DNA from: Patescibacteria group bacterium
Lineage (GTDB): Bacteria > Patescibacteriota > Minisyncoccia > RBG-13-40-8-A
DNA length: 64,000 bases
Reading direction: 5' to 3'
Assembly (NCBI GenBank): GCA_043807255.1
Contig: JAZDGD010000007.1
Location: 17,069 to 81,068, forward strand
The notes below the pieces were generated by a model. It was not told where the DNA came from. It saw only the letters and a program-made list of their open reading frames with translations, and searched no databases. This document shows positions 1,822-50,373 of the stretch, in pieces; the first letter of the stretch is position 1, and each line of letters begins with the position of its first letter. A program made the position numbers and the translations under genes.

Positions 1822-1861
1822 AGTATGTAGGACATCGTATGTCCTACATAATGTCTTAAAC

Positions 1862-1900: not shown

Positions 1901-2158
1901 TTATTTATCTCGATATTTTTTTCTTTTATCGAGATCTTTTTTAATAGCCTCGTTCACTTCCTCTTCTGACTTAAAATATCCTTCCGCGATTAATCCCTGT
2001 TTTGCCTCTTCAAATGCTTCCCGGGCCATCATGCCATGGTGACCAACACTTTCATCTGCCGTTTTTTTCCGATCCAATAAACTTTCAAATCTCATCCAAA
2101 ATTCCGGAGTTTCTCTGTCTTTTGATTCGATTCTTGATTCTTTGTTTTCTTTTCCCAT
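1901..2158 (-). CDS. hypothetical small charged protein (85 aa)
   Basis: ORF only. It is convergent with gpmI and shares the terminator above. Confidence 0.4.
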   Translation of the reverse strand: MGKENKESRIESKDRETPEFWMRFESLLDRKKTADESVGHHGMMAREAFEEAKQGLIAEGYFKSEEEVNEAIKKDLDKRKKYRDK

Positions 2159-2583
2159 AAAATTTTGTTACTTAAAATTTATTTTATTAATCCTCCTACT
2201 TTCCATTTTACCCCCCCCCAGCGGAAAGTCAAGCCCCATAACAAATTATGTAGGACGTCGCACGTCCCACATAATAATTGCCCTAAAAACATTTATGTCA
2301 TATTTGTCACGATCGTGAAAAATATTACATACATCGAAATAATAAAAACGACACCTTTCCACGATCGGACAAAAGTGTCACTTCTTAGAAATGTCAGAGG
2401 TAAGACCTCTGACATTTCTATCTTACGAGGCTAAGCCTCGTAAAGTCATATTCGGAGGTTCCACCTCCGAATTTTGTATCCTGCCATTAATGAGAATTTG
2501 TTTGTCACTGAGACAACTTCGCAGGCAAAATGCATGGTTTCGTCCCGACGAACGTGTCGACACATAAAATAAATCTGAGCGTC

Positions 2584-4124: not shown

Positions 4125-5800
4125 TTTATTTCTATTTCCTGAATTAATTTTTTAGTTGCCGGAAAAGTTAATTTTTCCATCGCTTCTTCTTTGGTCGCCC
4201 ATTCATATTTATCATGTTCAATAATTTCCTGTTTTAAAGAAATTATTTGCTCCATGTCGGCTTTAACCAAAAACGTATCCGCAATAACATAATTAATTCC
4301 ATCCGCTTGCCATTCTTCTTTCTTCCCTAGTTTTTTAATTACTTTAAATTTTTTAATTTGAGTTTCTTCTGCAATGCCTCTCTTTATCGTTTTTAATGGC
4401 GTTTCTCCCGGCTCAACGGTTTCTTTTAAAAATTCCCAACCATTCCATCTTAAAATTCTGTGAAGAATCAAAAAATACGGTTTATCATCTTTAACGTCGT
4501 ATATAATAGCTCTATACTTTTTTATTCCATCCCCGCCCCCGCCAACATCTGATGAAGTTGTGGCGGGTGGCGGGCCCGCCTGAATGCCCTCTGGGCTTTC
4601 GGCGAGCTTGTCGGCTTCTATCATTTTTTCACTCTTAACATCTATTTTCCAGCCCGTTAGTTTTGCGGCCAATCTTACGTTCTGTCCACGTTGTCCAATT
4701 GCTAAAGAAATTTGATCTTCGGGGACAATTACTGTTGCGCTTCTGTCTTTTTCTTCAGTTTTCACGCTAATAATTTTAGCAGGCGACAATGCATTGGCGA
4801 TATATTTCTCCATATTTTCATTCCACTCAATGATGTCAATTTTCTCTCCACCCAATTCAGCAATCACTGTTTGTACCCTGCTTCCTTTTTGTCCAACACA
4901 AGAACCAACTGGATCAACCCCTTGCTCTTCTGTAAAAACTGCAATCTTTGTTCTTGAGCCAGGCTCTCGAGCGATGGATTTTATTTGCACCGTTCCCGTT
5001 GAAATTTCTGGAACCTCAATAGAAAATAATCTGCTCACTAATTTTGGATAAGCGCGAGACAAAACAATATCAGCACCTTTTGAAGATTTTTCAACTTTCA
5101 AAATATAAACTCTCAAACGTTGACCGATAAAAAATCTTTCCCCGGGGATTTGCTCTTCGGCGTATAAAATTCCTGATGCCTTACCGATGTCCATAAAAAT
5201 ATTTCTGCCTTCAATCCTTTGTACTATCGCGCTCACGACTTCACCTTCTTTGTCTTTATACTCCGCAAACACAACCTCTCTTTCGGCTTCTCTTAATCTT
5301 TGAATAATAACTTGTTTTGCGGTTTGGGCAGCGATTCTTCCGAAATCGGTATGAGCCTCGAGTTTAGTTTGGATTTCATCTCCTGGCTTTGACCCTTTTT
5401 TAATTTTTTGTGCGTCATCAACCATCACATGTTTGAAGGGATTGAAACGAACTTTCTTGTTGCCTTCTGCATCAATTTCTTCGTCGTCCTCAAACTCTTC
5501 CCCGCCCCCACCAACATCTGATGAAGTTGTGGCGGGTGGCGGGCCCGCCTGAATGCCCTCTGGGCTTTCGGCGGGTTCTTCCTTTAACATACTTTCATCC
5601 ACAACCAAAAATACCTGGAAAACTTTTATTTCTCCAGTATTTAAATCGAACTTGACCTTAATATTCTGACCTTTCTTGCCATAGTCCTTCTTGTATGCAG
5701 CGGCAATCGCCATCTCAAGGGTTTCAATAATTTGTTCTTGAGAAATGCCTTTTTCTTCGGCAATTTGACTCATTGCTGATATAAATTGTTTTTGATCCAT
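4121..5800 (-). CDS. nusA: transcription factor NusA (NTD-S1-KH1-KH2) fused to a C-terminal NUDIX (MutT-like) domain. Contains two in-frame copies of a 76-bp GC-rich repeat
   Basis: Recognised parts are the NusA NTD (ISQIAEEKGIS, FGRIAAQTAKQVIIQRLREAERE), the S1 and two KH domains (IGQRGQNVRLAAKLTGWKIDV). The C-terminal 130 aa carry a Nudix box (WEFLKETVEPGETPLKTIKRGIAEETQI) that aligns position by position with the MutT box [30 protein letters not shown]. The peptide AESPEGIQAGPPPATTSSDVGGGG occurs twice. Confidence 0.85.
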   Translation of the reverse strand: MDQKQFISAMSQIAEEKGISQEQIIETLEMAIAAAYKKDYGKKGQNIKVKFDLNTGEIKVFQVFLVVDESMLKEEPAESPEGIQAGPPPATTSSDVGGGGEEFEDDEEIDAEGNKKVRFNPFKHVMVDDAQKIKKGSKPGDEIQTKLEAHTDFGRIAAQTAKQVIIQRLREAEREVVFAEYKDKEGEVVSAIVQRIEGRNIFMDIGKASGILYAEEQIPGERFFIGQRLRVYILKVEKSSKGADIVLSRAYPKLVSRLFSIEVPEISTGTVQIKSIAREPGSRTKIAVFTEEQGVDPVGSCVGQKGSRVQTVIAELGGEKIDIIEWNENMEKYIANALSPAKIISVKTEEKDRSATVIVPEDQISLAIGQRGQNVRLAAKLTGWKIDVKSEKMIEADKLAESPEGIQAGPPPATTSSDVGGGGDGIKKYRAIIYDVKDDKPYFLILHRILRWNGWEFLKETVEPGETPLKTIKRGIAEETQIKKFKVIKKLGKKEEWQADGINYVIADTFLVKADMEQIISLKQEIIEHDKYEWATKEEAMEKLTFPATKKLIQEIEIK

Positions 5801-5855: not shown

Positions 5856-5884
5856 ATTTTATGATATTAAAATTCGGATGTCAA
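5856..5884 (-). promoter_or_regulatory. sigma70-like promoter for nusA (TTGACA-17-TAAAAT on the minus strand), followed by a 5'-UTR hairpin (5821-5845)
   Basis: The minus strand reads GGTTGACATCCGAATTTTAATATCATAAAAT. No SD is found before the ATG at 5800. Confidence 0.5.
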
Positions 5885-5904
5885 CCCTTCGACTTCGCTC
5901 AGGG

Positions 5905-6282
5905 CTAGTACATATCTCCAACTGCATTTTCTAGATGGCGAATATCGAAAGTTTCATCGCGGTAAATTTCAATTGCCAAAACATCTATTTGCCAATCACT
6001 ATCTAATAATTTTTTCTTGCTTAAGTAAATTTGCGATAATTTAATTAATTTTTTCTGCTTGGTATAAGTAATGTTGTCTTCCGGCCAAAATCCGCCTGGC
6101 CCAGTTTTCATACGTGTTTTAACTTCAAAAAAAACGATATTATCGCCTTTCTTTGCAATAATATCTAACTCTCCTAATTTACTATACCTAAAATTCTTAT
6201 CTAAAATTTTATATCCCTTATTCTCCAAATATTCTCTTGCAATTTTCTCCCCCTTATCGCCCAAATCTTTTTTCTCTCGCAT
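5905..6282 (-). CDS. yraN: YraN/UPF0102 family endonuclease
   Basis: GELDIIA...VFFEVKTR pattern and a size of about 120 aa. Confidence 0.7.
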   Translation of the reverse strand: MREKKDLGDKGEKIAREYLENKGYKILDKNFRYSKLGELDIIAKKGDNIVFFEVKTRMKTGPGGFWPEDNITYTKQKKLIKLSQIYLSKKKLLDSDWQIDVLAIEIYRDETFDIRHLENAVGDMY

Positions 6283-14118: not shown

Positions 14119-14298
14119 ATTTTTTTATTAATTTAATAAAATCTGGTGCTTGCACCGCGAAGCTCTGAGGTTTTCCGAAGAGCGAAGTGGTGGACTTAGG
14201 CAGAATCCCCGCCTGCAACGCCTTGCGTAGCAATGGCGGGCAGGGAACTCGCCGTCTCAGCAACCTGCCTACCGGCAGGCAGGCTGCCGTCTTGTTAT

Positions 14299-14369
14299 TG
14301 GACTTAGCGGGAATCGAACCCACGTTTCGTCAATGCGAATGACGCGTATTACCACTATACTATAAGCCC
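14299..14369 (-). tRNA. tRNA-Ala (anticodon CGC), no encoded CCA
   Basis: A cloverleaf was derived by hand. The acceptor stem is GGGCTTA/TAAGTCC with the G3:U70 Ala identity pair, the anticodon loop is TTCGCAT and the T-loop is TTCGATT. Confidence 0.85.
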
Positions 14370-28812: not shown

Positions 28813-30312
28813 TTATTTTATCCAATATTTTTCACGGATTTTTAGATCTTCTTCTTCCTTTTTTTCTTCGATTTTACCTTTGGCTAATTTGCGAAGAACT
28901 TCTAGGTTTTCTTCGTTTAATTCTAAAACTCTTTTTTCTAAATATTTCTTATTATTGTTCTTCGGCTCTTCAATTACTTCCGCCAACAAAACATCCAAAA
29001 TCGCACCTACTTTTGGACTGGGTTCGATTTTTAACAATTTCATTATATCCGTGCCATTAATTTTCAACATCTTTGCAGAAATCGGATCCTTGGAAATTTT
29101 TTCAATCATATACTCAATTGTTCTTAAACGATAGGGTTTTTCTTTCGGCCTTCCCATTCCCAATCTATCGGCAACTCTTAAATTAATCAAATCAACAATA
29201 TTTTCTTTGCCCACTCTTTTTAATAATCTTCTTGCGCCAGCATCAGTTAATTTTTCTGGGTCGGAAACAAACATATGATTTCTAACCAGCAAAACAACTT
29301 TATCAATAAATTTATTGGAGAATTTTAATCGTTTTAAAATTTTATCGACAAATTTCGCACCAACATAATCGTGATTATAAAAAGTAGAGTCGGGGCCTTC
29401 GCCTTGTTTGGTTTCTGGCTTACCAATATCATGGAATAAGGCCGCAACCTTTACTTCTAAATTAAAATCTTTCTTTGCTGCTTCATCCAACGCCCTTAAA
29501 GAGTGCTCATAAATATCATAAATATGGTGCTTGTTTTGGCTTACGCCAACACCCTTGTCGAGTTCTGGCAAAATGAATTTAAGTAAATTTGTTTGTCGCA
29601 ATAAATCAATTCCATTTGCTGCTTTTTTGGTTTGAAAAATTTTAATTAATTCGTCGTGAATTCTTTCATTGGAAATCATTTGAATTAATTCTGCATTTTT
29701 TTGAATCGCCTTAAAGGTTTTTTCCTCGATCGTAAAATCAAGGGTGCAGGCGAATCTTACCGCTCTTAGCATTCTTAGTGCGTCTTCATCGAATCTTTTA
29801 TTCGCATCGCCAACCGCACGAATTATTTTATTTTTTAAATCTTTCTGTCCATCGAAAAAATCTAATATTCGGACGTCCGATGTCCTACCATTCTTAATGT
29901 CGGGACATCGGACGTCCCCCATTTTTAACGCGAGTGCATTTACCGTAAAATCCCGCCTGGCAAGATCTTCTTCTAACTTTTTAGCAAAAGTTATTTCGTC
30001 AGGATGACGCTTGTCAGAATATTTTCCCTCTAAGCGAAAAGGCGTGATCTCGACAATTTTTAATGTTTCGTCTTTAGAATCAGTAATTACGCTTACTGTG
30101 CCAAATTGATTTTCATAAAAATTTTTAGGGAATAACTTTCTAATTTGTTCCGGTTTAGCATTAGTAGTAATGTCCCAATCGTTGGGCTTAATGTCTCTTC
30201 CTTCGACTTCGCTCAGGACGAGGTCGCGAACACAACCACCAACAGCATAAGCTTCGTAGTCATTCTTAATCAATTTTTCTAATATTAAATTAACTTCCTT
30301 GGGAATTGTCAT
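28813..30312 (-). CDS. cca: CCA-adding tRNA nucleotidyltransferase with an HD domain. Carries two in-frame palindromic-element insertions
   Basis: GGCVRD, RRDFTVNALA and HDIGKP. The inserted peptides are SEVEGRD and KMGDVRCPDIKNGRTSDVR. Confidence 0.88.
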   Translation of the reverse strand: MTIPKEVNLILEKLIKNDYEAYAVGGCVRDLVLSEVEGRDIKPNDWDITTNAKPEQIRKLFPKNFYENQFGTVSVITDSKDETLKIVEITPFRLEGKYSDKRHPDEITFAKKLEEDLARRDFTVNALALKMGDVRCPDIKNGRTSDVRILDFFDGQKDLKNKIIRAVGDANKRFDEDALRMLRAVRFACTLDFTIEEKTFKAIQKNAELIQMISNERIHDELIKIFQTKKAANGIDLLRQTNLLKFILPELDKGVGVSQNKHHIYDIYEHSLRALDEAAKKDFNLEVKVAALFHDIGKPETKQGEGPDSTFYNHDYVGAKFVDKILKRLKFSNKFIDKVVLLVRNHMFVSDPEKLTDAGARRLLKRVGKENIVDLINLRVADRLGMGRPKEKPYRLRTIEYMIEKISKDPISAKMLKINGTDIMKLLKIEPSPKVGAILDVLLAEVIEEPKNNNKKYLEKRVLELNEENLEVLRKLAKGKIEEKKEEEDLKIREKYWIK

Positions 30313-30407: not shown

Positions 30408-30486
30408 GCGGTCGCAAGATTGCCCTGCTCGCGGATGCGAGTCCGAGATTTAAACTTCGCCTTTTAAAGGCGAGGTTTTGTTTTTA
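30408..30486 (+). ncRNA. candidate small RNA of about 75 nt: promoter, internal hairpins, then an intrinsic terminator (30455-30485)
   Basis: The terminator CTTCGCCTTTTAAAGGCGAGGTTTTGTTTTT is plus-oriented. No ORF lies between the promoter and the terminator. Confidence 0.4.
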
Positions 30487-31114
30487 TAAAAGTAATTCCC
30501 TTTTTTATTCTTTGAGCATTGATATTCAAATCTGCTCTTTCTTTAAGATAATGCGTAATATATCCCGCACTAAATAAAATTACTTTTTTCTTTCTTCTTC
30601 TTAAAAAATTTAACAAATAGGCAAAATCTGCGTCGCTGGAAAATAAACAAAAAGTGTCATATTTGTCTAAGAATCTTATTGCATCAATACAAATTTCGGC
30701 ATCAAAATTACATTTCGGGATGTAAACGTATCTACCTTGATCGTCTTGATCTATGTTTCTTGTTGTGCTTTTTTCTTCGGAGGAATCTAAATAATGTCTA
30801 ATTTTTTGTATCGGTTTGGTAATTGTTTTGTCAAAATATTGTCTTGCTTTACTGATAATTTTGATAGATTTTTGCTTTGTTGTGTCCAGGCCAAAATAAA
30901 ATCTTTTATGCTCTGAAAATAAATTTATGAAACCTGCTAATTTTTCTATATCAACCACCAACTTTTTGTCTTGTGATAAAACATTATCATCGCCATCTCT
31001 TTCGTCTCTTTCGTACCAATAGTTTACATTCCCAAAATCAACAAAACTATAAATTTTACCAAATTTATTTTTATCTATTTCTAAGTTTTCTAATTTAAAC
31101 TCACACAAATCCAT
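30464..31114 (-). CDS. NYN/LabA-like (PIN-like) domain protein
   Basis: FSSDADFAYLL. A paralogous architecture occurs at 36881..37396. Confidence 0.55.
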   Translation of the reverse strand: MDLCEFKLENLEIDKNKFGKIYSFVDFGNVNYWYERDERDGDDNVLSQDKKLVVDIEKLAGFINLFSEHKRFYFGLDTTKQKSIKIISKARQYFDKTITKPIQKIRHYLDSSEEKSTTRNIDQDDQGRYVYIPKCNFDAEICIDAIRFLDKYDTFCLFSSDADFAYLLNFLRRRKKKVILFSAGYITHYLKERADLNINAQRIKKGITFIKTKPRL

Positions 31115-31178
31115 TATATCTTAACCATACCTTAAAAATGCGTTTATGACAAATAAAAAAATCGCATTGAACACGACT

Positions 31179-31252
31179 TGGTGCCCCCACAAGGAATCGG
31201 ACCTTGGTCAGCTGCTTAAAAGGCAGTTGCTTTACCATTAAGCTATGGGGGC
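31179..31252 (-). tRNA. tRNA-Lys (anticodon UUU) with encoded 3' CCA
   Basis: GCCCCCA...TGGGGGCACCA. Anticodon loop CTTTTAA. Confidence 0.8.
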
Positions 31253-31270: not shown

Positions 31271-31921
31271 TTAATTAATATGATTGCATATTTCTTCAAT
31301 CCATGCAAGAATTCTATGCCTTAAATTCTCATTATTGACCTGAATTCTAAGCGTTCCATTGTATAACTTGTTCTTTCTGTGACCAGTGCCTTCTTTTTTG
31401 AAGAAAGTGCTTCCAAATCTATTTGTCGAAATATGAACTATTTTTGACCAATATCTTTTTGCTTTTTTTTCATTAAGACCAGTGTGAAGGTGTAAATATG
31501 GCTTAATCTTGTTTTCTGGCACCATACAAACATCTCGATACCATTTCATCATAAATTTGATCAATAATGGATCAGAATTTGTGAAAGACGAACTTTTAAC
31601 CTTAGATCCTTCGGCCCAATACAATGCCGCACCGATCATTTTAATCTCGTAATTGTTTAAGTGCTTAATTTCTTTCTTCGCATTTTTTTTAATAACTTCA
31701 ATCTCTTTTTGTCTTTTTAGTTGGTTGGCTTTGGCACCACGGAATTGGGTATCATACAAAGAACCCAGACGAGTGATCTGTTTTTTGGTCAATTTAACGT
31801 TTTTACACCATGCGCTAATAGTGCTTTTGCTCACAGGAACCCGTTTCACTATTTCCGAATAGCTGAATCCCTTTTTTCTTAACTCCATAGCACGCTCTTT
31901 CAATTGCCATTTTCTAGTCAT
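31271..31921 (-). CDS. HTH-domain protein with a LAGLIDADG-like motif (putative homing-endonuclease-like), embedded between two tRNA-Lys genes
   Basis: N-terminal HTH (GFSYSEIVKRVPVSKSTIS) and IGAALYWAEGSK. Confidence 0.35.
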   Translation of the reverse strand: MTRKWQLKERAMELRKKGFSYSEIVKRVPVSKSTISAWCKNVKLTKKQITRLGSLYDTQFRGAKANQLKRQKEIEVIKKNAKKEIKHLNNYEIKMIGAALYWAEGSKVKSSSFTNSDPLLIKFMMKWYRDVCMVPENKIKPYLHLHTGLNEKKAKRYWSKIVHISTNRFGSTFFKKEGTGHRKNKLYNGTLRIQVNNENLRHRILAWIEEICNHIN

Positions 31922-31991
31922 AATCGTATATGTTAATTAATACTACATGATTACATATTAAGTATACGATCATAAAATTGTATTGTCAATT

Positions 31992-32062
31992 TGCCCCCAC
32001 AAGGAATCGGACCTTGGTCAGCTGCTTAAGAGGCAGTTGCTTTACCATTAAGCTATGGAGGC
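31992..32062 (-). tRNA. tRNA-Lys (anticodon CUU), no encoded CCA
   Basis: Identical to the UUU copy except at position 4 (C to T) and position 34 (T to C). Confidence 0.8.
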
Positions 32063-37432: not shown

Positions 37433-39607
37433 ATGAATCGTAGTCTGAAGTTTGCAGATCAAGGCGAAAAATATATGGATGTGAAAACATTTAAAACAGA
37501 GATCGAAGGAAAAGAACTCTCTGTCGAGTTGGGTAGATTGGCTCAACAAACCAATGGCTCGGCCTTGGTAACGTATGGACAAACCACAGTTTTAGCAACT
37601 GCGGTTCTTTCCAATAAAAAAAGCGAAAAAACCTATTTTCCCCTAACCGTTGATTACGAAGAAAAATTTTACGCAGCGGGAAAAATCAAGGGCAGTCGTT
37701 TCATTAAAAGGGAAGGAAGGCCATCAGATGAAGCGATTTTAACTGGCCGAGTTATTGATAGATCAATCCGACCTCTTTTTAATCAAAAACTAAGAAACGA
37801 TTTACAGGTCGTTTTAACCGTCTTATCATTCGACGGTGAAAATGATCCAGTACTACCAGCGCTAATTGGCGCTTCGGTTGCCCTGTCTATTTCTGACATA
37901 CCATTTAATGGACCAATTGCAGGAATTTCTGCTGGTCAAGATGAAAAAGGAGAATGGATTGTTACTTCAACCTTAAGCGCAAAAGCAAAAACTGGTTCAG
38001 AAATTTTTGCAGCCGGAATCGAAAAAGACAACGATATTCTTTTAAATATGCTTGAAGGACAAGGAATACAGGTTCCAGAAGAGCAAATGCTTGAAGGAAT
38101 CGATGTTGTGAGAAAATATATTAAAAAATTAATTGATTTTCAAAAGGATATCATTAAAGAGGTTAAACCAGTCAAATTAGAATTAACAATCCCAGAAATT
38201 GATGCTGATCTTAAAAAATTAATCGATAAATTTCTTGAAGATAAAATAGAAACAGCAATTTATCATAAAGAAAAACAAGCCAGAGTAAAGCAATTAGAAG
38301 ATATTAATTTGGGAATTGAGGTCTTGATCGAAGAAAAATATCCCGAAGAAACAAAGGGAAAAACCGCAATGGTTATGGATTATCTTGAAGAAAAAATTGA
38401 TGAAATCACTCACATCAACATTCTTAAAAACGACAAGAGACCGGATGGTAGAAAAATGGACGAATTAAGAAAATTAAGCGCCGAAGTAGCAATTCTTCCT
38501 AGATTACACGGTTCGGGATTGTTCCAAAGAGGAGAAACACAAGTATTCTCTGCTGTTACTCTTGGCTCTCCTGGCTCGGAACAAATTTTTGACCAAATGG
38601 AGATTCAAGGCAAAAAAGGATTTATGCATGACTACAACTTTCCCCCATTCTCTGTGGGAGAGGTCGGACGAGTCGGAAATCCTGGCAGACGGGACATTGG
38701 CCATGGTGCATTAGCGGAAAAAGCGTTAATGGCGATTGTCCCTTCAAGAGAAGAATTTCCTTATACGATTAGAGTTGTATCTGAAGTCCTGTCTTCAAAT
38801 GGATCGTCTTCAATGGCATCTGTTTGCGGTTCGACATTAGCATTAATGGATGCCGGTGTTCCAATTAAAGAAAAGGCAGCTGGTATTGCCATGGGGTTAA
38901 TGATGGACCCTTCGACGGGCTCAGGGCAAGCTTTAAAATATAAAGTTTTAACCGATATTCAGGGACCAGAAGATCATTATGGCGACATGGACCTGAAGAT
39001 TGCTGGAACAAAAAATGGAATTAACGCACTTCAAATGGATATTAAAATTGACGGGATACCAATGAATATCTTGAAGGATGCATTTCAACAATCAAAAAGG
39101 GCACGTCTAGAAATTCTTGATGTAATCACAAAAACGATCGACGTACCTCGTGCAGAATTATCAACTTTTGCTCCTCGCGTTTATTCGATAAAAATCAATC
39201 CTGCCAAAATAGGATTAGTGATTGGTTCTGGCGGAAAAACAATTAATGAACTTTCCACAGAAACCGGAGCGACCATTGAAATCGAAGAAGATGGAACAAT
39301 CTTTGTTACCTGCAATGATGCTGATGGCGCAAAGCGAGCAATCAACAGGATTGAATCAATGACCAGGGAAGCAAAAGTAGATGAAGAATTTGAAGGAACG
39401 GTTGTTAAGGTTATGGAGTTCGGCGCATTTGTAGAATTGTTTCCCGGACAAGATGGATTGCTCCACATTTCCGAACTTTCGAACAAAAGAGTTGATAGGG
39501 TTGAAGACATAGTTAGACAAGGCGATATTGTTCATGTTAAAGTTAAGAAAGTGGACGATAGTGGTAAAATTAGTCTTGGTTTAATAAAAATTATTTCAAA
39601 AAAATAA
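37433..39607 (+). CDS. pnp: polynucleotide phosphorylase. The start may be the downstream Met at 37476. Carries an in-frame insertion DPSTGSGQALK encoded by a repeat element (38908-38926)
   Basis: Two RNase PH domains, KH and S1. VLTDIQGPEDHYGDMD. Confidence 0.9.
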   Translation: MNRSLKFADQGEKYMDVKTFKTEIEGKELSVELGRLAQQTNGSALVTYGQTTVLATAVLSNKKSEKTYFPLTVDYEEKFYAAGKIKGSRFIKREGRPSDEAILTGRVIDRSIRPLFNQKLRNDLQVVLTVLSFDGENDPVLPALIGASVALSISDIPFNGPIAGISAGQDEKGEWIVTSTLSAKAKTGSEIFAAGIEKDNDILLNMLEGQGIQVPEEQMLEGIDVVRKYIKKLIDFQKDIIKEVKPVKLELTIPEIDADLKKLIDKFLEDKIETAIYHKEKQARVKQLEDINLGIEVLIEEKYPEETKGKTAMVMDYLEEKIDEITHINILKNDKRPDGRKMDELRKLSAEVAILPRLHGSGLFQRGETQVFSAVTLGSPGSEQIFDQMEIQGKKGFMHDYNFPPFSVGEVGRVGNPGRRDIGHGALAEKALMAIVPSREEFPYTIRVVSEVLSSNGSSSMASVCGSTLALMDAGVPIKEKAAGIAMGLMMDPSTGSGQALKYKVLTDIQGPEDHYGDMDLKIAGTKNGINALQMDIKIDGIPMNILKDAFQQSKRARLEILDVITKTIDVPRAELSTFAPRVYSIKINPAKIGLVIGSGGKTINELSTETGATIEIEEDGTIFVTCNDADGAKRAINRIESMTREAKVDEEFEGTVVKVMEFGAFVELFPGQDGLLHISELSNKRVDRVEDIVRQGDIVHVKVKKVDDSGKISLGLIKIISKK

Positions 39608-40971: not shown

Positions 40972-42507
40972 ATGAATAAAGTTTATTCAGCTGCAACAAC
41001 GGGATTAGACGCCGAACTCATTGAGGTGGAGGCAGATTTATCTTCTGGCCTCCGCTTTTTTAGTATCGTTGGCCTTCCCGACAAATCAGTTGAAGAGTCC
41101 AAGGAAAGAATTGCTGCGGCCATAAAAAATAGTGGAGCCGAACCTCCGCATAAACAAAATAAACGCGTAATTATCAACTTGGCACCTGCCGATTTAAGAA
41201 AAGAGGGTTCGGGATATGACCTACCAATTGCTTTAAGTTTTTTATTGTCATCCCAACAAATAGAATTTGATGCTGAAGACAAAATTTTTGTTGGCGAGCT
41301 TGCCTTAAATGGCGAAGTAAGGAGAGTTAATGGGGTTTTACCAATTTGTTTGGCAGCAAAAGAAAAAGGAATTAAAAATGTTTTTGTCCCAAAGTCAAAC
41401 AGCAATGAAGCACGATTAGTGAAAGATATTAACGTCTATCCTGTTGAATCTTTGGCGGAATTAATCGGATTTTTAGAAAATAGAATTGAAATCAAAGCGT
41501 TAGAACCATTTGATGAAAATTTCTTGGAAGGATTTGAAACTGCATTTCCATCAACAGTAGATATGGCATACATTAAGGGCCAGGAAAACGCTAAACGAGC
41601 ATTAGAAATTGCAGCTAGCGGAAATCATAATATCATTATGACCGGCCCACCTGGGTCTGGAAAAACTTTATTGGCCAAAGCAATTCCCACTATTCTACCG
41701 AGAATGGCATGGAGTGAGGTTTTAGAGGTGACTAAAATTTATAGTGTTTCGGGAAAATTATCCCATAAAAAACCATTCATCCACCAAAGACCATTTCGCT
41801 CTCCCCACCATAGCGCGTCAGAAGCAAGTATGATTGGAGGCGGGGGATTTGCAAGACCAGGAGAAATAACTTTAGCACATCGGGGAGTTCTATTTATTGA
41901 TGAATTTCCAGAAATACATCGTGATGTCTTGGAAAGTTTAAGGCAACCGCTTGAAGATGGAGTTGTGCATATTTCTAGGGCAAAGGCGAGTTATAGTTTT
42001 CCTTCAAGATTTATTTTGGTCGCGGCGATGAACCCCTGTCCTTGCGGATATTATGGCGACCCAGAGAAACAATGCACCTGCAATCAACAACAAATCGGCA
42101 AATATCAGCGCAGAATTTCTGGACCAATTATGGATAGAATTGATTTATATGTTGAAGTGCCACACGTTAAATATGGAAAATTAACCGATGAATCGGTTGA
42201 GGGTTCGAGCGAAGAAATTCGAGAAAAGGTGGAAAAGGCAAGGAAAATTCAATTGGAAAGATTTAAAGATGATAATATTGTTACTAATTCAGAAATGAAC
42301 ATCCCTTTAGTTAAAAAGCATTGCCAGACCGATGAGCAAGGCGAAATGTTATTAAAAAATGCAGTAAATAATCTGCATATGTCTGCGCGTGGATATCATC
42401 GCATTCTTAAGCTCGCCCGCACAATCGCCGATCTCGCCGACATGCCCAATATCACCCACATCCACATCGCCGAAGCATTGCAATATAGACCAAAGATGGA
42501 AATATAG
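40972..42507 (+). CDS. comM: Mg-chelatase-like AAA ATPase YifB/ComM. The track's TTG at 40927 is probably not the start
   Basis: GPPGSGKT and a C-terminal YRPK motif; collinear over about 510 aa. Confidence 0.85.
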   Translation: MNKVYSAATTGLDAELIEVEADLSSGLRFFSIVGLPDKSVEESKERIAAAIKNSGAEPPHKQNKRVIINLAPADLRKEGSGYDLPIALSFLLSSQQIEFDAEDKIFVGELALNGEVRRVNGVLPICLAAKEKGIKNVFVPKSNSNEARLVKDINVYPVESLAELIGFLENRIEIKALEPFDENFLEGFETAFPSTVDMAYIKGQENAKRALEIAASGNHNIIMTGPPGSGKTLLAKAIPTILPRMAWSEVLEVTKIYSVSGKLSHKKPFIHQRPFRSPHHSASEASMIGGGGFARPGEITLAHRGVLFIDEFPEIHRDVLESLRQPLEDGVVHISRAKASYSFPSRFILVAAMNPCPCGYYGDPEKQCTCNQQQIGKYQRRISGPIMDRIDLYVEVPHVKYGKLTDESVEGSSEEIREKVEKARKIQLERFKDDNIVTNSEMNIPLVKKHCQTDEQGEMLLKNAVNNLHMSARGYHRILKLARTIADLADMPNITHIHIAEALQYRPKMEI

Positions 42508-42544: not shown

Positions 42545-42922
42545 ATGATATATACTGATTCTAATGAATATAAAGTAAAATTTTTCGTTGATCCCAAAAC
42601 AGGAAAAGATCCAGTTATGAAATACATTAATGATTTAGACGAAAAACAGAAAGCAAAAGTTTCTAGATTTATCGAATTTTTAAGACAACACGAAGGCGTA
42701 TTAGATGAGCCATACTCAAAACACATTAAAGGCAAAATTCGCGAATTAAGGATTGATTTTGGCAAAAATAGACACAGAATCTTCTATTTTACGTTCATCA
42801 ACAAGAACATCATATTGCTCCACGCATTTTTAAAGCATACGCAAAAAACTCCTGAAACTGAGATAAAAATCGCTGAAAATAATTATAATATTGTAATTAA
42901 TAATCCAAAATTTTATGAATAA
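42545..42922 (+). CDS. higB: HigB/Gp49-like (RelE/ParE superfamily) toxin. Start uncertain: alternatives are 42617 or the TTG at 42527, which is more likely a -35 hexamer
   Basis: IRELRIDFGKNRHRIFYF ... LLHAFLK, similar to Gp49/HigB-2. Confidence 0.6.
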   Translation: MIYTDSNEYKVKFFVDPKTGKDPVMKYINDLDEKQKAKVSRFIEFLRQHEGVLDEPYSKHIKGKIRELRIDFGKNRHRIFYFTFINKNIILLHAFLKHTQKTPETEIKIAENNYNIVINNPKFYE

Positions 42923-43205
42923 AAAAATAAAAGCAAGAGATTTTCAAAAATACCTTGCTCAACAATTAAAAAATCCCGAATTCAAGAGACACTACGATGA
43001 TTACGGCAAACAATTAGAAATTGCTTACCAGATTTTGAAGTTGCGAAAACAGAGAAATATGTCCCAGTTACAATTAGCCAGAAAGATTAAAACCAAGCAA
43101 AGCAATATCGCCCGAATCGAAGCTGGCAAACAAAATCTTAGCATTCAAACCCTCGACAGCATCGCCCGCGCATTAAACAGCAATTTTACAGTCAACTTTT
43201 CGTAA
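42915..43205 (+). CDS. higA: HTH XRE-family antitoxin (HigA-like)
   Basis: HTH (LRKQRNMSQLQLARKIKTKQSNIARIE). Overlaps the toxin stop. Confidence 0.65.
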   Translation: MNKKIKARDFQKYLAQQLKNPEFKRHYDDYGKQLEIAYQILKLRKQRNMSQLQLARKIKTKQSNIARIEAGKQNLSIQTLDSIARALNSNFTVNFS

Positions 43206-43317
43206 AATCCACATCGCCGAAGCGTTGCAATATAGACCGAAGATGGAGGTATGATAAAATTTTCAATTTTCAATTTCTAATTTACAATGAATTTTTAATG
43301 ATTAAATTTTCAAACCC

Positions 43318-43455
43318 ATGACCAAGAAAATAAAAGCAAGAGATTTCCAAAAATATCTTGCCGAACAATTAAAAAATCCTGAATTTAAGAAACATTACGA
43401 TAAATTCGGCAAAAAATTAAGGCAGAATTATAAAAAAAGCGAAATACATGATTAA
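43318..43455 (+). pseudogene. truncated second copy of the HigA-like antitoxin (N-terminal 45 codons only)
   Basis: MTKKIKARDFQKYLAEQLKNPEFKKHYD, against MNKKIKARDFQKYLAQQLKNPEFKRHYD in the intact copy. Confidence 0.55.
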
Positions 43456-45517: not shown

Positions 45518-45784
45518 TTATCGAGTGGCCCTTTTGAGTTTAACGCAGGGGAAGTAGAATTCGTATCCGGACAACATACGTTCTCCGGTTTTTTCGTTGG
45601 TACAAATGTCTTCCAATAAGCACAAGGCGCAGGCAATAAATCCTTCTCCGACGAATTTACTGTCTCCGTATTTTACAAATATAACCTCCTTACCCACAAA
45701 ACATTCTCTTGCTTCGAAATGAAATGCTCCCCCTCCCAGTTCGACAATTTCGCATTTGTCCCCAGGATTAAAAATTTTTTGCAT
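45518..45784 (-). CDS. small Cys-rich hypothetical protein (88 aa). The start is reassigned to the Met that has a GGAGG SD
   Basis: SD GGAGG lies 6 nt upstream. The track's upstream 25 codons are encoded by the palindromic operator. Confidence 0.45.
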   Translation of the reverse strand: MQKIFNPGDKCEIVELGGGAFHFEARECFVGKEVIFVKYGDSKFVGEGFIACALCLLEDICTNEKTGERMLSGYEFYFPCVKLKRATR

Positions 45785-45828
45785 GTGCGCCTCCTTCATT
45801 TCAATATAGCATACGATAATAGACACGC

Positions 45829-45863
45829 ATAGATGTACGGAGAACTGTTCTCCGTACATCTAT
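45829..45863. promoter_or_regulatory. perfect 16-bp inverted repeat with a 3-nt spacer (ATAGATGTACGGAGAA ctg TTCTCCGTACATCTAT) upstream of the small Cys-rich gene; putative operator
   Basis: Read directly from the sequence. Confidence 0.55.
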
Positions 45864-45873: not shown

Positions 45874-45902
45874 AAAATGTGGCGGGACAGGGTCCCGCCA
45901 CG
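45874..45902 (-). terminator. intrinsic terminator for 45918..46334 (GTGGCGGGACCCTGTCCCGCCAC plus a T-run on the minus strand)
   Basis: GC hairpin plus TTTTT. Confidence 0.6.
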
Positions 45903-47581: not shown

Positions 47582-49507
47582 ATGAGCGATATTTTAACTG
47601 ATTTGAATCCAAAACAGCAAGAAGCGGTAACCACGATTGATGGGCCGGTTTTGATATTGGCTGGGCCGGGTTCTGGCAAGACAAAAGTGCTTACTCACCG
47701 CTTAGCATACATGGTAAAATCAGGAATTTTGCCCCAAAACATCTTGGCGGTCACATTTACAAATAAGGCGGCAGGCGAGATGAAATCGCGAACAGCAAAG
47801 CTGCTCGACCATACCAGCTATCTACCTTTTATGGGAACCTTCCACGCATTTTGCTTAAAAACCTTGCGCAAAGAAATCCCCAAATTGGGCTACAGATCAA
47901 GTTTTGTAATTTATGACGAAGACGACCAATTGAGCTTGGTAAAAGACGTTATTAAGCGATTAGAAATTAACCAAGACCAGTTCTCTGCTAAAAGGGCCCT
48001 ACACACAATTTCTTCCCTAAAAAACGAAATTATTGATTACAAAGAATACGAAGATAATGCACAAGAATTTTTTGAGAAAATAATTGCTAAAATTTATAGA
48101 GGGTATCAAGAAGAACTAAAAAAGAACAATGCCCTGGACTTTGATGACTTAATTATGTTTATGGTTAAAATTTTTGAAGAATGGCCAGATGTCTTAGAAA
48201 GATATCAAGAACAATACAAATATATTATGGTTGATGAATATCAGGACACTGACCCATCGCAATACAAATTAATTAAATTATTATCGTCTAAATACAAAAA
48301 TATTTGCGTAGTGGGAGACGACGCACAATCGATTTATTCATTTAGAAATGCGGATTTCAGAAATATTTTGAATTTTGAAAAAGATTATCCGCAAGCAAAA
48401 GTTGTGACCCTAGACCAAAATTATCGATCAACACAAAATATTTTAGACGCTGCTTCAAAATTAATTTCCAAAAATGTTTATCAAAAACCGAAAAATCTTT
48501 GGACAGAGAATCCTTCTGGCCCCTTGATTGCAGTTGTGGGAACCTGGAACGAAAAAAGCGAAGCGGAATTCATTGTTAAAAAGATTGCCGAACTCTCACA
48601 ACAGGGATACAAATTAAGCGATTTTGCAATTTTCTACCGAACCAATGCCCAATCACGTGCAGTTGAAGAGGCGTTTATTAAAAACAACATCCCCTACAAA
48701 TTGGTGGGAGCGATTAGATTTTATCAAAGAAGGGAAATTAAAGATTTGATTGGATATTTAAAATATATTTCCAACGGCGATGAATTGAGTTTAAAAAGAA
48801 TTATTAACACTCCCACTCGAGGGGTTGGCAAAATTACAATTGATAAAATCTTACAAAATGGCATTGAAAAAATCGCTGAAGAAAAAAATGAAGTAGGGTT
48901 ATTCTATAAAATTATTCAAAAAGCAAAAGAACTCGCTCTAAAATCGCCATTATCAAAGCTTTTAAAATTTATTCTCAAAGAAACTGAATATCAGAATTAT
49001 CTTAAAAAAACTTATGGCGATAACGAACTGCAGGCCGGACTTTCTGAAGATGAGGCGCGATGGCAAAACGTTGAAGAGCTCGTCAGTGTTGCTGCCGAAT
49101 ATGATAAACTCCCTTCACCACAAGGATTAAATGATTTTTTGGAAAAAACTGCATTACTTTCTGATGCTGACGAAATTCAAAACAATCAAAATGTTGTACA
49201 TCTAATGACACTTCATACCGCCAAGGGGCTGGAATTTCCAGCAATTTTCATTATTGGTTGCGAAGAGGGAATTTTACCTCATTCGCGAAGCTTACTAAAT
49301 CCTTTAGACATTGAAGAAGAACGCAGACTATTTTATGTCGGCATAACCAGAAGTAAGGTTCATTTACATTTAATCGTTTCTCAACGCAGAACAAGCTGGG
49401 GATCGCAAGAAGCGAATCCGCCATCGAGATTTTTGTCAGAAATACCTGAACATCTAATTCAATACGAAGAATTCGAACCAGACATTAAAGGACTAATTGA
49501 TTTTTAA
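47582..49507 (+). CDS. pcrA: ATP-dependent DNA helicase PcrA/UvrD
   Basis: GPGSGKT, TFTNKAA, DEYQDT and the VTLDQNYRS motifs. Confidence 0.9.
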   Translation: MSDILTDLNPKQQEAVTTIDGPVLILAGPGSGKTKVLTHRLAYMVKSGILPQNILAVTFTNKAAGEMKSRTAKLLDHTSYLPFMGTFHAFCLKTLRKEIPKLGYRSSFVIYDEDDQLSLVKDVIKRLEINQDQFSAKRALHTISSLKNEIIDYKEYEDNAQEFFEKIIAKIYRGYQEELKKNNALDFDDLIMFMVKIFEEWPDVLERYQEQYKYIMVDEYQDTDPSQYKLIKLLSSKYKNICVVGDDAQSIYSFRNADFRNILNFEKDYPQAKVVTLDQNYRSTQNILDAASKLISKNVYQKPKNLWTENPSGPLIAVVGTWNEKSEAEFIVKKIAELSQQGYKLSDFAIFYRTNAQSRAVEEAFIKNNIPYKLVGAIRFYQRREIKDLIGYLKYISNGDELSLKRIINTPTRGVGKITIDKILQNGIEKIAEEKNEVGLFYKIIQKAKELALKSPLSKLLKFILKETEYQNYLKKTYGDNELQAGLSEDEARWQNVEELVSVAAEYDKLPSPQGLNDFLEKTALLSDADEIQNNQNVVHLMTLHTAKGLEFPAIFIIGCEEGILPHSRSLLNPLDIEEERRLFYVGITRSKVHLHLIVSQRRTSWGSQEANPPSRFLSEIPEHLIQYEEFEPDIKGLIDF

Positions 49508-50373
49508 TGATTAAAATTCAAGATATTTTAAACAGATACAATATCAAACCCAATAAATTTATGGGGCAGAATTTTTTGATTGACGAGAATGTTTTGAATA
49601 AAATTATTGAAACTGCAAACATTAAACCAAACGATATTATTTTGGAGGTTGGGCCCGGATTAGGAAATTTAACATTGGAACTAGCAAAAAGGGCAGAGCG
49701 AGTGATTGCGATTGAAAAAGATAGAGAATTGTGTGAAATATTAGAAAAAATTCTAAAAGATAACAACATAAAAAATGTCCAAATTATCAATGACGATATT
49801 TTAAAAATGGGAGACATCGCACGTCCCCATGTAGGACGTGCGATGTCCTACATGGTTGTGGCAAATATTCCGTACTATCTTACTTCGCCATTGATTAGAA
49901 TGTTTTTGGAAACAGAAAATAAACCAAGCGAAATAATTTTAATGATTCAAAAAGAGGTGGCTCAGCGCATCTGCGCTTCGCCACCCACTAAATCGCCAAA
50001 GGCGATCGGGCCCGAACTACGAAGTAGTTCTAGGGCAAAAATGTCCTTACTCGCCGTATCTGTGCAATTTTATGCTAAACCAGAGATAATTTCTTTTGTT
50101 TCTAAAAATAGTTTTTACCCTGTGCCAAAAGTGGATTCTTCAATCATCAAAATAGTGCCCTACAACACAAAGAATGTTGGACGTCCGACGTCCAACATTG
50201 ATACGGAAAAGTTTTTTAAATTGGTGAAAATGGGGTTTTCTGCGAAAAGAAAGATGCTAAAAAACAACATCCCTGAAATTAATTTTGAAAAATTAAATTT
50301 AAATCCAGGTATTCGTGCAGAGAGTTTAACGATCAATGATTGGATTAAAATTTATGAACAATTTAATCCCTAA
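49507..50373 (+). CDS. rsmA: 16S rRNA (adenine1518/1519-N6)-dimethyltransferase with three in-frame palindromic-element segments
   Basis: GQNFL, EVGPGLGNLT and NIPYY. The extra segments are KMGDIARPHVGRAMSYM, TKSPKAIGPELRSSS and NVGRPTSNID. Confidence 0.88.
   Translation: MIKIQDILNRYNIKPNKFMGQNFLIDENVLNKIIETANIKPNDIILEVGPGLGNLTLELAKRAERVIAIEKDRELCEILEKILKDNNIKNVQIINDDILKMGDIARPHVGRAMSYMVVANIPYYLTSPLIRMFLETENKPSEIILMIQKEVAQRICASPPTKSPKAIGPELRSSSRAKMSLLAVSVQFYAKPEIISFVSKNSFYPVPKVDSSIIKIVPYNTKNVGRPTSNIDTEKFFKLVKMGFSAKRKMLKNNIPEINFEKLNLNPGIRAESLTINDWIKIYEQFNP

What the first reader, a model, noticed from the sequence alone, without database searches (positions are those of the whole stretch)
49813..50199. 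rsmA carries three separate in-frame palindromic-element segments
The segments are KMGDIARPHVGRAMSYM (49813-49853, family A), TKSPKAIGPELRSSS (about 49975-50040, GC-rich with two hairpins; roughly 15 aa longer than E. coli KsgA here) and NVGRPTSNID (50173-50199, a perfect 27-bp palindrome). The first shares the peptide start KMGD(I/V)..P with the insertion in cca, because the same element is read in the same frame.
Basis: partly seen in the sequence, partly recalled or inferred. Interest (0 to 1): 0.6.

Follow-up and report, generated by a model that had tools for sequence, protein, structure and literature searches.

The report
REP palindromes translated inside rsmA
The 16S rRNA methyltransferase gene of this candidate-phyla-radiation bacterium carries, in frame, two copies of a 25-base palindromic repeat that elsewhere flanks a REP-type transposase gene, plus one unrelated GC-rich insertion in an rRNA-recognition loop; this is a known kind of selfish DNA in an unusual place.

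Summary
rsmA (49507-50373, +) contains three GC-rich, hairpin-forming, in-frame segments. They are not three separate kinds.

Segments 1 and 3 belong to one family, the 25-nt palindrome ATGT[AGT]GGAC[AG]T-nnn-A[CT]GTCC[ACT]ACAT. Segment 3 is a single copy. Segment 1, and the cca insert, are inverted dimers.

This palindrome is found almost only in Patescibacteria MAGs. In 13 fetched loci it flanks, in inverted orientation, a 220-250 aa gene with an HUH motif and a conserved Tyr. The predicted fold of that protein best matches the E. coli REP-associated tyrosine transposase (4ER8). So these are GTAG-type REP/REPIN elements.

Unusually, 86 of 143 copies lie inside long ORFs, including tRNA synthetases, DnaX and MurD. 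Of those, 74 are in the one symmetric frame that reads VG[RH]x[TM]S[YHN].

In RsmA orthologues both REP sites are patchily occupied, needing at least 6 and 15 gains or losses on a rough tree.

Segment 2 is a clean 51-nt insertion unique to this genome. No second copy was found anywhere searched. It lies in KsgA loop12, which contacts h45 and h27.

All three segments coincide with the only low-confidence stretches of the AlphaFold model.

Verdict: a real feature, and a new variant of a known kind. No RAYT gene was found in the window.

The parts
49507..50373 (+). rsmA/ksgA coding sequence (288 aa), host of the three segments
   Evidence: ORF list. Pfam RrnaAD E 2e-51. 100% identical to an NCBI Patescibacteria MAG RsmA. 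Closest solved structure is B. subtilis KsgA 6ifs, E 2e-43.
49807..49830 (.). Segment 1, left unit: a degenerate REP copy (ATGGGAGACATCGCACGTCCCCAT, centre CGC), read as M-G-D-I-A-R-P-H
   Evidence: Arm 49813-49826 is perfectly complementary to 49834-49847. The same half-REP plus REP arrangement sits at the same nucleotide position in orthologue P0030/L128.
49829..49853 (.). Segment 1, right unit: an intact 25-nt REP (ATGTAGGACGTGCGATGTCCTACAT, centre GCG, inverted relative to the left unit), read as (H)VGRAMSY(M)
   Evidence: Family D8.. The dimer hairpin folds at -28.7 kcal/mol, z -5.8.
49987..50037 (+). Segment 2: an orphan 51-nt GC-rich insertion (T161-A177, TKSPKAIGPELRSSSRA) made of three mini-palindromes (49992-50006, 50006-50015, 50014-50030). 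It lies in KsgA loop12, directly before the conserved Lys
   Evidence: Clean codon-level insertion against 6 orthologues. Absent in 110 of 120 orthologues. No other copy found. Loop12 mapping. Fold -21.7 kcal/mol, z -3.5.
50173..50199 (.). Segment 3: a REP monomer (core 50174-50198, ATGTTGGACGTCCGACGTCCAACAT, centre CCG), a perfect 27-bp palindrome read as NVGRPTSNI. [quoted passage not shown]
   Evidence: Orthologues carry variant REPs at the same nucleotide position, with compensatory stem changes. Fold -16.6 kcal/mol, z -5.8. AlphaFold places it between strand 211-218 and helix 233-243.
29865..29922 (.). REP inverted dimer (centres CCG/CGG) inside cca (ORF 28813-30312, minus strand), read as MGDVRCPDIKNGRTSDVR. 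This is the comparison element named in the finding
   Evidence: A 15-aa insertion absent from 117 of 120 cca orthologues, with one orthologue carrying the same dimer. Fold -33.3 kcal/mol, z -7.8.
1825..1849 (.). Intergenic REP copy (ATGTAGGACATCGTATGTCCTACAT), 4 nt after the stop of ORF 238-1821
2248..2272 (.). Intergenic REP copy (ATGTAGGACGTCGCACGTCCCACAT, centre CGC, the same variant as segment 1)

Best explanation
Segments 1 and 3 of rsmA, and the cca insert, are copies of a Patescibacteria-wide REP-type element. It is a 25-nt palindrome with a GT[AGT]G head, an 11-bp stem and a 3-nt centre.

By analogy with E. coli REP/RAYT and with IS200/IS605, the element would be recognised as a single-stranded DNA hairpin and moved or copied in trans by a REP-associated tyrosine (HUH/Y1) transposase encoded elsewhere in the genome.

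Copies that land in coding DNA persist only under two conditions. First, they must fall in indel-tolerant loops. Second, they must be in the one symmetric reading phase, which has no stop on either strand and gives the peptide VG[RH]x[TM]S[YHN]. Dimers give ..D[IV]xxP..VG[RH]xxSY...

In RsmA two such loops are repeatedly occupied and emptied across lineages: the variable loop before motif IV, and the inter-domain linker.

Segment 2 is a separate event. It is a lineage-specific 51-nt GC-rich triple mini-palindrome inserted in loop12, another recurrent insertion site. Its source is unknown.

What is shown: family membership, the association with RAYT-like genes, the coding-frame bias, the patchy occupancy and the loop locations. 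What is inferred: RAYT-mediated mobility, translation of the segments, and that the modified RsmA still works.
For: 1. One family. Four 25-nt copies plus a dimer lie in the window.

2. Distribution. My own estimate of the chance expectation is about 0.15. Nearly all hits are Patescibacteria MAGs.

3. The palindrome is maintained. The two stem pairs left free by the search pattern are complementary in 135/143 and 141/143 copies, against 52 and 73 expected.

4. REPtron architecture. In 13 loci a 220-250 aa ORF sits next to REPs. In 9 of the 13 a REP is seen on both sides. Where a flank is present, it lies about 20-70 nt upstream of the start or about 10-50 nt after the stop. In several loci, for example L005, L053, L075 and L114, the centre triplets show the two flanks are inverted relative to each other.

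5. The ORF is a Y1 transposase.
- The HUH histidines and Tyr136 are invariant.
- NCBIfam REP_Tyr_transpos scores E 1e-6 and Pfam Y1_Tnp E 0.007.
- Some family members carry PF01797.
- The AlphaFold model's top Foldseek hit is 4ER8, the RAYT-REP complex (E 1.5e-5, probability 1.0), followed by IS608, ISDra2 and IS200 TnpA.

6. Genome-specific variants. The stem type is identical in 72% of within-genome pairs against 17% between genomes.

7. Coding bias. 86 of 143 copies lie inside ORFs of at least 150 codons. The frames split 74:7:5, and the binomial p between the two always-open frames is 8e-17.

8. Real host genes. The hosts checked are Tgt, MnmA, DnaX, PheT, ArgS, ValS, MurD, Dus and AlaS.

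9. Patchy occupancy in RsmA. At least 6 changes at site 1 and 15 at site 3 are needed on the tree. The nearest neighbour, P0005, is empty at both sites.

10. Loop location. The three segments coincide with the only low-pLDDT blocks of the RsmA model.
Against: - No RAYT-like gene lies in the 64-kb window or in 7 syntenic loci. A cognate transposase for this genome is therefore not shown.
- The RAYT-like proteins fall below the curated cut-offs of NCBIfam (28.6 against 80 bits) and Pfam (16.9 against 23 bits).
- 'Filled' alleles at site 3 are only 3-8 aa longer than 'empty' ones. The REP replaces the loop rather than simply inserting into it.
- An identical composite sits at the same nucleotide position in distant orthologues. 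This could equally be ancient retention with losses.
- Most surveyed copies come from loci with GC of at least 48%, where spurious long ORFs are likelier. In loci below 40% GC only 5 of 13 copies are intragenic.
- Low pLDDT in lineage-specific inserts is partly expected from the alignment itself.
- Segment 2 fits no family.
Confidence: 0.78

Rival explanations
1. The hairpins are kept in place because they act as RNA or DNA signals inside the gene. Possible roles are translational pausing at a domain boundary, mRNA stabilisation or processing, or a protein-binding site. On this view they are not passively tolerated selfish DNA.
For: - The palindrome is maintained by compensatory changes.
- RAYT-like genes keep an in-frame REP at a fixed position before the HUH motif, which could be autoregulatory.
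- The hairpins are stable, at -16 to -33 kcal/mol.
Against: - Occupancy is patchy among close orthologues. The nearest relative has none.
- The same element occurs in intergenic DNA and in dozens of unrelated genes at unrelated positions.
- Genome-specific variants point to copying within genomes.
- The frame bias implies that the constraint acts on the peptide, not only on the hairpin.
Confidence: 0.1
2. VG[RH]x[TM]S[YHN] is a functional protein motif, for example a binding or modification site, recruited into many proteins. On this view the DNA palindrome is secondary.
For: The reading frame is strongly preferred, 74 of 86. The peptide is conserved across hosts.
Against: - Identical DNA occurs outside genes and flanks transposase genes.
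- The peptide varies exactly as the palindrome allows, R with T and H with M.
- It lies in low-confidence loops.
- It is absent from most orthologues.
Confidence: 0.03
3. The segments are not translated. They would be bypassed by the ribosome or removed from the mRNA, as with the GC-rich 'byp' inserts of yeast mitochondria.
For: They are GC-rich hairpin inserts in AT-rich genes, which superficially resemble mitochondrial bypass elements (my own knowledge, not tested here).
Against: - All three are multiples of three, free of stops and in phase.
- Across genomes the stop-free symmetric frame dominates and no stop-containing intragenic copies were seen. If the inserts were skipped there would be no such constraint.
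Confidence: 0.03
4. The palindromes are assembly or amplification artefacts of metagenome-assembled genomes.
For: All data come from MAGs. Palindromes can arise as chimeric artefacts.
Against: The same family is found at orthologous sites in independent assemblies from JGI, ENA and NCBI, with variant-specific compensatory changes and associated transposase genes.
Confidence: 0.01

Closest known systems
GTAG-tagged REP elements and their RAYT 'REPtrons' (E. coli TnpA_REP, PDB 4ER8; Pseudomonas REPINs; Di Nocera et al. 2013, PMC3733652; Bertels and Rainey 2011, PMC3116915)
   Same: - A short palindrome with a GT[AG]G head.
- Monomers and inverted dimers.
- The transposase gene is flanked by inverted copies.
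- An HUH plus Tyr enzyme with the Y1 fold.
- Variants specific to each genome.
- A minority of intragenic REPs has already been reported.
   Different: - A perfect 11-bp stem with a 3-nt centre.
- The head is GTAG in only 67 of 143 copies, and otherwise GTGG or GTTG.
- A third to two-thirds of copies are inside genes, in one preferred frame. Published REPs are mostly intergenic.
- The transposase is about 225 aa with an extra C-terminal region, scores below the curated HMM cut-offs and carries an in-frame REP itself.
- The host clade is Patescibacteria, for which I found no published description.
Rickettsia palindromic elements (RPE-1 to RPE-8), 'selfish DNA in protein-coding genes' (my own knowledge; RPE-4 and RPE-6 are linked to CGTC REPs in PMC3733652)
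   Same: Palindromic repeats inserted in frame into housekeeping genes of a reduced genome. They are tolerated in surface regions and also occur between genes.
   Different: RPEs are about 100-150 bp. They are unrelated in sequence and have no dedicated transposase identified. Here the unit is 25 nt (8-9 codons) and is tied to a RAYT-like gene.
GC-rich palindromic clusters and bypass ('byp') inserts in AT-rich fungal mitochondrial genes (my own knowledge)
   Same: GC-rich hairpin mini-inserts sitting inside coding regions of an AT-rich genome. This is the closest analogy for orphan segment 2.
   Different: A different domain of life with no sequence relation. The bypass elements are not translated, whereas the frame statistics here argue for translation.

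Membership tests
REP (repetitive extragenic palindrome), GTAG class | Short (20-40 bp) palindrome able to form a stem-loop | tested here: met
   A 25-nt unit with an 11-bp stem and a 3-nt centre. Folds at -15 to -17 kcal/mol, z about -6. Free stem pairs are complementary in 135/143 and 141/143 copies.
REP (repetitive extragenic palindrome), GTAG class | GTAG (GT[AG]G) tetranucleotide at one end | tested here: inconclusive
   Position 5 is A in 67 copies, G in 40 and T in 36 of 143. So GTAG or GTGG occurs in 75% and GTTG in 25%. Whether this tetranucleotide is the cleavage site is untested.
REP (repetitive extragenic palindrome), GTAG class | Dispersed, multi-copy within a genome | tested here: met
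   Five loci (seven units) in the 64-kb window. Total copy number per genome was not measured.
REP (repetitive extragenic palindrome), GTAG class | Extragenic location | tested here: not met
   86 of 143 copies lie inside ORFs of at least 150 codons. In loci below 40% GC, 5 of 13 do. In the window, 3 of 5 loci are intragenic. The element therefore works like a REP but is not 'extragenic'.
REP (repetitive extragenic palindrome), GTAG class | Association with a RAYT gene flanked by the same repeats | tested here: met
   13 loci carry a RAYT-like ORF with the same REP adjacent, on both sides in 9 of them. The flanks are inverted where the centre triplets allow orientation to be read. Not met within the window itself.
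RAYT / IS200-IS605 Y1 HUH transposase (the gene next to the repeats in other genomes) | HUH metal-binding motif and catalytic Tyr | tested here: met
   H77, H79 and Y136 (in YxHxNP) are invariant in 12- and 63-sequence alignments. The HUH region aligns to ISDra2 TnpA.
RAYT / IS200-IS605 Y1 HUH transposase (the gene next to the repeats in other genomes) | Y1 transposase fold | tested here: met
   AlphaFold model with pLDDT 77.7. Foldseek top hit is 4er8_A (E 1.5e-5, probability 1.0, TM 0.38/0.50), followed by IS608, ISDra2 and IS200 TnpA.
RAYT / IS200-IS605 Y1 HUH transposase (the gene next to the repeats in other genomes) | Score above curated family thresholds (NCBIfam NF047646, Pfam PF01797) | tested here: not met
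   28.6 bits against a cut-off of 80, and 16.9 bits against 23, for the L005 protein. Some relatives do carry a precomputed PF01797 hit. This is a divergent subfamily.
RAYT / IS200-IS605 Y1 HUH transposase (the gene next to the repeats in other genomes) | Binds and cleaves its REP as single-stranded DNA | not testable with these tools
   Needs biochemistry.
Rickettsia palindromic elements (RPE) | A 100-150 bp element of the Rickettsia RPE sequence families | tested here: not met
   The unit is 25 nt (dimers about 47-58 nt) and the host is Patescibacteria. The resemblance is functional only.
MITE | Terminal inverted repeats with target-site duplication | tested here: not met
   The whole unit is one palindrome. 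No duplicated flank is visible at the rsmA or cca sites in codon alignments.

The most novel reading that the evidence does not exclude
Patescibacteria host a REP/RAYT system that has adapted to living inside genes.

- The 25-nt palindrome has evolved so that its symmetric frame encodes the same benign loop peptide whichever way it inserts.
- It can therefore colonise, and precisely leave, loops of essential proteins. This makes it a standing generator of loop-length variation in the translation and replication machinery of these reduced genomes.
- The affected loops include RNA-recognition loops such as KsgA loop12 and the inter-domain linker.
- The conserved in-frame REP inside the RAYT gene would let the transposase sense or regulate itself.
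Probability: 0.25. Interest if true: 0.75.

Novelty: new variant of a known kind. Interest (0 to 1): 0.55.

Why it matters
REPs are the textbook extragenic repeat, and what REP/RAYT systems do is still debated. This family is tied to a divergent RAYT, spread across a whole superphylum of reduced-genome bacteria, and found largely inside essential genes in one preferred reading frame.

- It gives a natural data set for asking how Y1 transposase-driven hairpin elements choose or survive at their sites.
- It explains part of the many unexplained small insertions seen in CPR proteins.
- It warns annotators and structure predictors that such loops are mobile-DNA scars, not lineage-specific functional motifs.
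- For RsmA specifically, one insertion sits in an rRNA-recognition loop. That is testable for an effect on substrate recognition.

Tried and rejected
- **Segment 2 as a member of a repeat family.**
  - No similar sequence in the window at up to 3 mismatches.
  - None in 0.93 Mb of fetched CPR DNA by blastn-short.
  - None for TCGCCAAAGGCGATCGGGCCCGA in metagenome contigs.
  - The single hit for GAACTACGAAGTAGTTCTAGGG (L124) is a terminator hairpin after efp in an unrelated, non-CPR-looking contig. I treat it as a coincidence of short palindromes.
- **Looking for the cognate RAYT.** tblastn with 13 RAYT-like proteins found nothing in the window or in 7 syntenic loci. Attempts to extend beyond the window ends failed because the end ORFs are not on record with exactly those products.
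- **Known RNA families.** Rfam at gathering thresholds finds only four tRNAs in the window and nothing in rsmA.
- **Restriction-site or uptake-sequence idea (GACGTC).** Rejected because the GGACAT...ATGTCC variants lack the site yet keep the palindrome.
- **Literature.** No paper was found on REP/RAYT in CPR or Patescibacteria. The hits for 'RAYT' plus 'Patescibacteria' were unrelated microbiome papers.
- **Simple ancestral insertion at site 3 with vertical descent.** Disfavoured by at least 15 state changes on the tree and by an empty nearest neighbour. It is not excluded for the site-1 composite shared with P0030.
Full report
**Observation**

The window is AT-rich (about 35% GC). It matches a Patescibacteria (CPR) MAG contig of 98.6 kb. 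rsmA is the ORF at 49507-50373 (+), 288 aa, with Pfam RrnaAD at E 2e-51.

- Segment 1 has 14-nt perfect arms at 49813-49826 and 49834-49847, plus an overlapping 11-nt pair at 49827-49837 and 49845-49855.
- Segment 3 is a perfect 27-bp palindrome at 50173-50199.
- Segment 2 is GC-rich, with mini-palindromes at 49992-50006, 50006-50015 and 50014-50030.
- None of the long patterns appears in 100 shuffles of the window.
- As RNA the segments fold at -28.7, -21.7 and -16.6 kcal/mol, with z-scores of -5.8, -3.5 and -5.8.
- Rfam finds nothing there.

**Orthologue comparison**

I aligned 120 close RsmA orthologues, 52-74% identical and apparently all from CPR-type metagenome bins. I also made a codon alignment with six syntenic loci.

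*Segment 2* is a clean 51-nt insertion at 49987-50037 (T161-A177) between CCACCC and AAAATG.

- It is absent from all six loci and from 110 of 120 proteins.
- At least ten other orthologues carry unrelated, also GC-rich and hairpin-rich, inserts of 5-24 aa at the same place.
- P0030 has one a few residues upstream.

*Site 3* has a 5-aa ancestral-looking state, of the KQIPE type, in 59 of 120 orthologues.

- About 20 orthologues instead carry [x]VG[RH]xxS[HY].
- At the DNA level this is the same palindrome at the same nucleotide position, with fully compensatory stem changes: GTT..AAC, GTG..CAC, GTA..TAC, and CGT..ACG against CAT..ATG.

*Site 1* is hypervariable, at 8-38 aa.

- In several lineages it is built from short tandem repeats.
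- The window, P0023, P0030/P0043 and the P0062 group carry the palindrome there.
- P0030 has the same half-unit plus full-unit composite at the same nucleotide position as the window.

On a neighbour-joining tree with the inserts masked, occupancy needs at least 6 changes at site 1 and at least 15 at site 3. The window's nearest neighbour, P0005, is empty at both.

**One family, not three**

Segments 1 and 3 share the 25-nt unit ATGT[AT]GGACGT-nnn-A[CT]GTCC[AT]ACAT with two intergenic copies, at 1825-1849 and 2248-2272.

The non-palindromic centre triplet gives each unit an orientation.

- Segment 1 is an inverted dimer: a degenerate left unit with centre CGC and an intact right unit with centre GCG. 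This is the same variant as the copy at 2248.
- The cca insert at 29865-29922 is an inverted dimer with centres CCG and CGG, the same variant as segment 3.

The cca insert reads MGDVRCPDIKNGRTSDVR. It is a 15-aa insertion absent from 117 of 120 orthologues. One orthologue carries the same dimer.

**What the family is**

My own estimate of the chance expectation is about 0.15 matches.

- Nearly all hits are Patescibacteria MAGs: Paceibacterota, Kaiser-, Nomura-, Saccharibacteria and others.
- A few bins are labelled Omnitrophota, Planctomycetia or Chloroflexota.
- There is one single copy in an Amycolatopsis.

Several loci had three copies at fixed spacing.

- There, two copies flank a 220-250 aa ORF and a third lies in frame inside it, just upstream of an H-x-H motif.
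- The flanks sit about 20-70 nt upstream of the start and about 10-50 nt after the stop.
- In several of these loci the centre triplets show that the two flanks are inverted relative to each other.
- Thirteen fetched loci have such a gene next to REPs. In nine of them a REP is present on both sides.

The protein has the marks of a Y1 transposase.

- The HUH histidines and a Tyr in YxHxNP are invariant.
- It scores weakly against NCBIfam REP_Tyr_transpos (E 1e-6, below cut-off) and Pfam Y1_Tnp (E 0.007).
- Its profile aligns its HUH region to ISDra2 TnpA.
- Some relatives carry PF01797.
- An AlphaFold model (pLDDT 77.7) has as best PDB match 4ER8, the E. coli REP-associated tyrosine transposase bound to a REP hairpin (E 1.5e-5). 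IS608, ISDra2 and IS200 transposases follow.
- The family has 326 clusters at 50% identity with E of 1e-30 or better.

This is the REPtron arrangement described for GTAG REPs (PMC3733652).

Two further statistics fit copying within genomes.

- The two stem positions that the search pattern left free are complementary in 135/143 and 141/143 copies, against 52 and 73 expected.
- Stem variants are shared by 72% of within-genome pairs but only 17% of between-genome pairs.

**The unusual part: location**

Published REPs are mostly intergenic, with a minority inside genes. Here 86 of 143 copies lie at least 20 codons deep inside ORFs of at least 150 codons.

- Ten host ORFs were checked with Pfam. 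They are Tgt, MnmA, DnaX, PheT, a class-V aminotransferase, ArgS, ValS, MurD, Dus and AlaS.
- 74 of the 86 are read in the one phase that is symmetric on both strands and gives VG[RH]x[TM]S[YHN].
- Only 5 use the other always-open phase (p = 8e-17) and 7 the third.
- Dimers give the recurrent ..D[IV]xxPTS[DN]VG[RH]xxSY[MI].. peptide. The window's MGDIARPHVGRAMSYM is a compact version of it.

A caveat applies. 110 of the 143 copies come from loci with GC of at least 48%, where long spurious ORFs are likelier. In loci below 40% GC, 5 of 13 copies are intragenic.

**Structure mapping**

An AlphaFold model of the window's RsmA has a mean pLDDT of 85.9.

- Its only weak blocks are residues 101-110, 161-180 and 221-230, which are the three segments.
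- Low confidence in lineage-specific inserts is partly expected from the alignment.
- Segment 3 lies between the last strand of the methyltransferase domain (211-218) and the first helix of the C-terminal domain (233-243).

Against B. subtilis KsgA (6ifs/7v2l), segment 1 causes no net length change, segment 2 adds 12 aa and segment 3 adds 5 aa.

Segment 2 aligns inside B. subtilis A163-S175.

- The cryo-EM paper on KsgA-30S calls this loop12.
- K169 of loop12 contacts h45 and A901 of h27.
- Loop12 together with the C-terminal domain forms the pocket for G1516 (bioRxiv 10.1101/2021.09.15.460497).
- So the expectation of 'surface loops' is right. For segment 2, though, the loop is a substrate-recognition element, and the insert is net basic (+3).
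- Whether this changes rRNA recognition is untested.

**Mechanism**

*Shown*

- Segments 1 and 3 and the cca insert are members of a REP-type family associated with RAYT-like genes.
- They sit in recurrently variable loops.
- The family is strongly biased to one reading phase.

*Inferred*

- The elements are recognised as single-stranded hairpins and copied or moved in trans by the RAYT-like enzyme, by analogy with E. coli TnpA_REP and IS200/IS605.
- They are translated.
- Selection removes all but loop-located, symmetric-phase copies.

*Not explained*

- The REP replaces the ancestral loop at site 3 rather than adding to it.
- The site-1 composite shared with P0030 may be ancient or re-targeted.
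- No RAYT gene is seen in the window or in syntenic loci.
- The origin of segment 2 is unknown. It has no second copy in any search.

**Rivals**

- An in-situ RNA or DNA function is not excluded, and could coexist with the main explanation. It does not explain the patchiness or the frame bias.
- A protein motif, non-translation (bypass) and assembly artefact are each contradicted by specific results. See the rival entries.

**Comparison and novelty**

The closest known system is the GTAG-REP/RAYT REPtron, including the reported minority of intragenic REPs. Rickettsia RPEs are the closest functional analogue for in-frame palindromes in housekeeping genes.

Membership as a REP/RAYT system is supported on the stem-loop, the dispersal, the RAYT association, the HUH/Tyr motifs and the fold. 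It fails on 'extragenic' and on the curated HMM thresholds.

I therefore file it as a new variant of a known kind. I found no description of REP/RAYT in CPR bacteria in the searchable literature. That is absence of evidence only.

**Verdict**

The main added value is threefold:

- identifying the family and its transposase;
- recognising that segments 1 and 3 are the same element;
- placing segment 2 in KsgA loop12.

Interest is moderate at 0.55.

Noticed in passing
window 4530-4604 and 5499-5573 (ORF 4121-5800, minus strand, NusA-like): Two 99%-identical 75-nt GC-rich copies lie in frame in the same gene. Both encode AESPEGIQAGPPPATTSSDVGGGG, 969 nt apart. This is another in-frame repeat family, unrelated to the REP.
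   Followed up: partly
window 5875-5905, 30197-30246 (cca N-terminus), 38893-38935 (PNPase): A 'CCCTTCGAC...GCTCAGGG' family is read as LSEVEG on one strand and as PSTGSGQA or FDFAQG on the other. The cca copy is absent from 118 of 120 orthologues. The same family appears at RsmA sites 2 and 3 in other genomes.
   Followed up: partly
window 14141-14303: A 163-nt GC-rich intergenic block full of CCTGCC..GGCAGG palindromes lies next to a tRNA gene (14299-14369). Peptides of the same kind (LPAGRQG, PASRQGG) occur as inserts in RsmA orthologues.
   Followed up: no
window 45829-45863 and 45879-45901: A perfect palindrome with 17-bp arms overlaps the start of ORF 45518-45859 (minus strand). It is followed by a GC-rich 10-bp hairpin.
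   Followed up: no
window 1825-2272: The two intergenic REP copies bracket an 86-aa ORF on the minus strand (about 1901-2158) and a bidirectional terminator-like hairpin (1862-1894).
   Followed up: partly
L005 3010-3034; also L053, L075, L048, L033, L059, L114, L094: The RAYT-like genes of this family themselves carry a conserved in-frame REP (for example LHVGRTTSYIR) just upstream of the HUH motif. It falls in a low-pLDDT loop of the model. In L012, L099 and L120 the site shows decayed remnants.
   Followed up: partly
L002 / L003 / L122 / L123, rsmA site 1: In orthologues the loop corresponding to segment 1 is built from lineage-specific short tandem repeats: ACAAGCT x5, CAATTACAA x3 and TTTTCAAT x4. 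The loop is a general indel hotspot.
   Followed up: partly
window 30464-31252 and 31271-32062: A duplicated unit of a 216-aa ORF plus a 97%-identical tRNA gene.
   Followed up: no
window 42460-42505 / 43207-43252 and 42915-43016 / 43318-43419: Direct repeats of 46 nt (91% identical) and 102 nt (85% identical) lie downstream of the Mg-chelatase-like gene. They suggest a local duplication.
   Followed up: no
L118 6637 (Amycolatopsis sp.), and L006, L008, L009, L057, L075, L104, L117: A few pattern hits lie in genomes not labelled Patescibacteria. One is a single copy in an actinomycete, possibly by chance. Several copies are in MAGs labelled Omnitrophota, Planctomycetia or Chloroflexota, which may be mis-binned CPR contigs. 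L075 carries a full REPtron.
   Followed up: no
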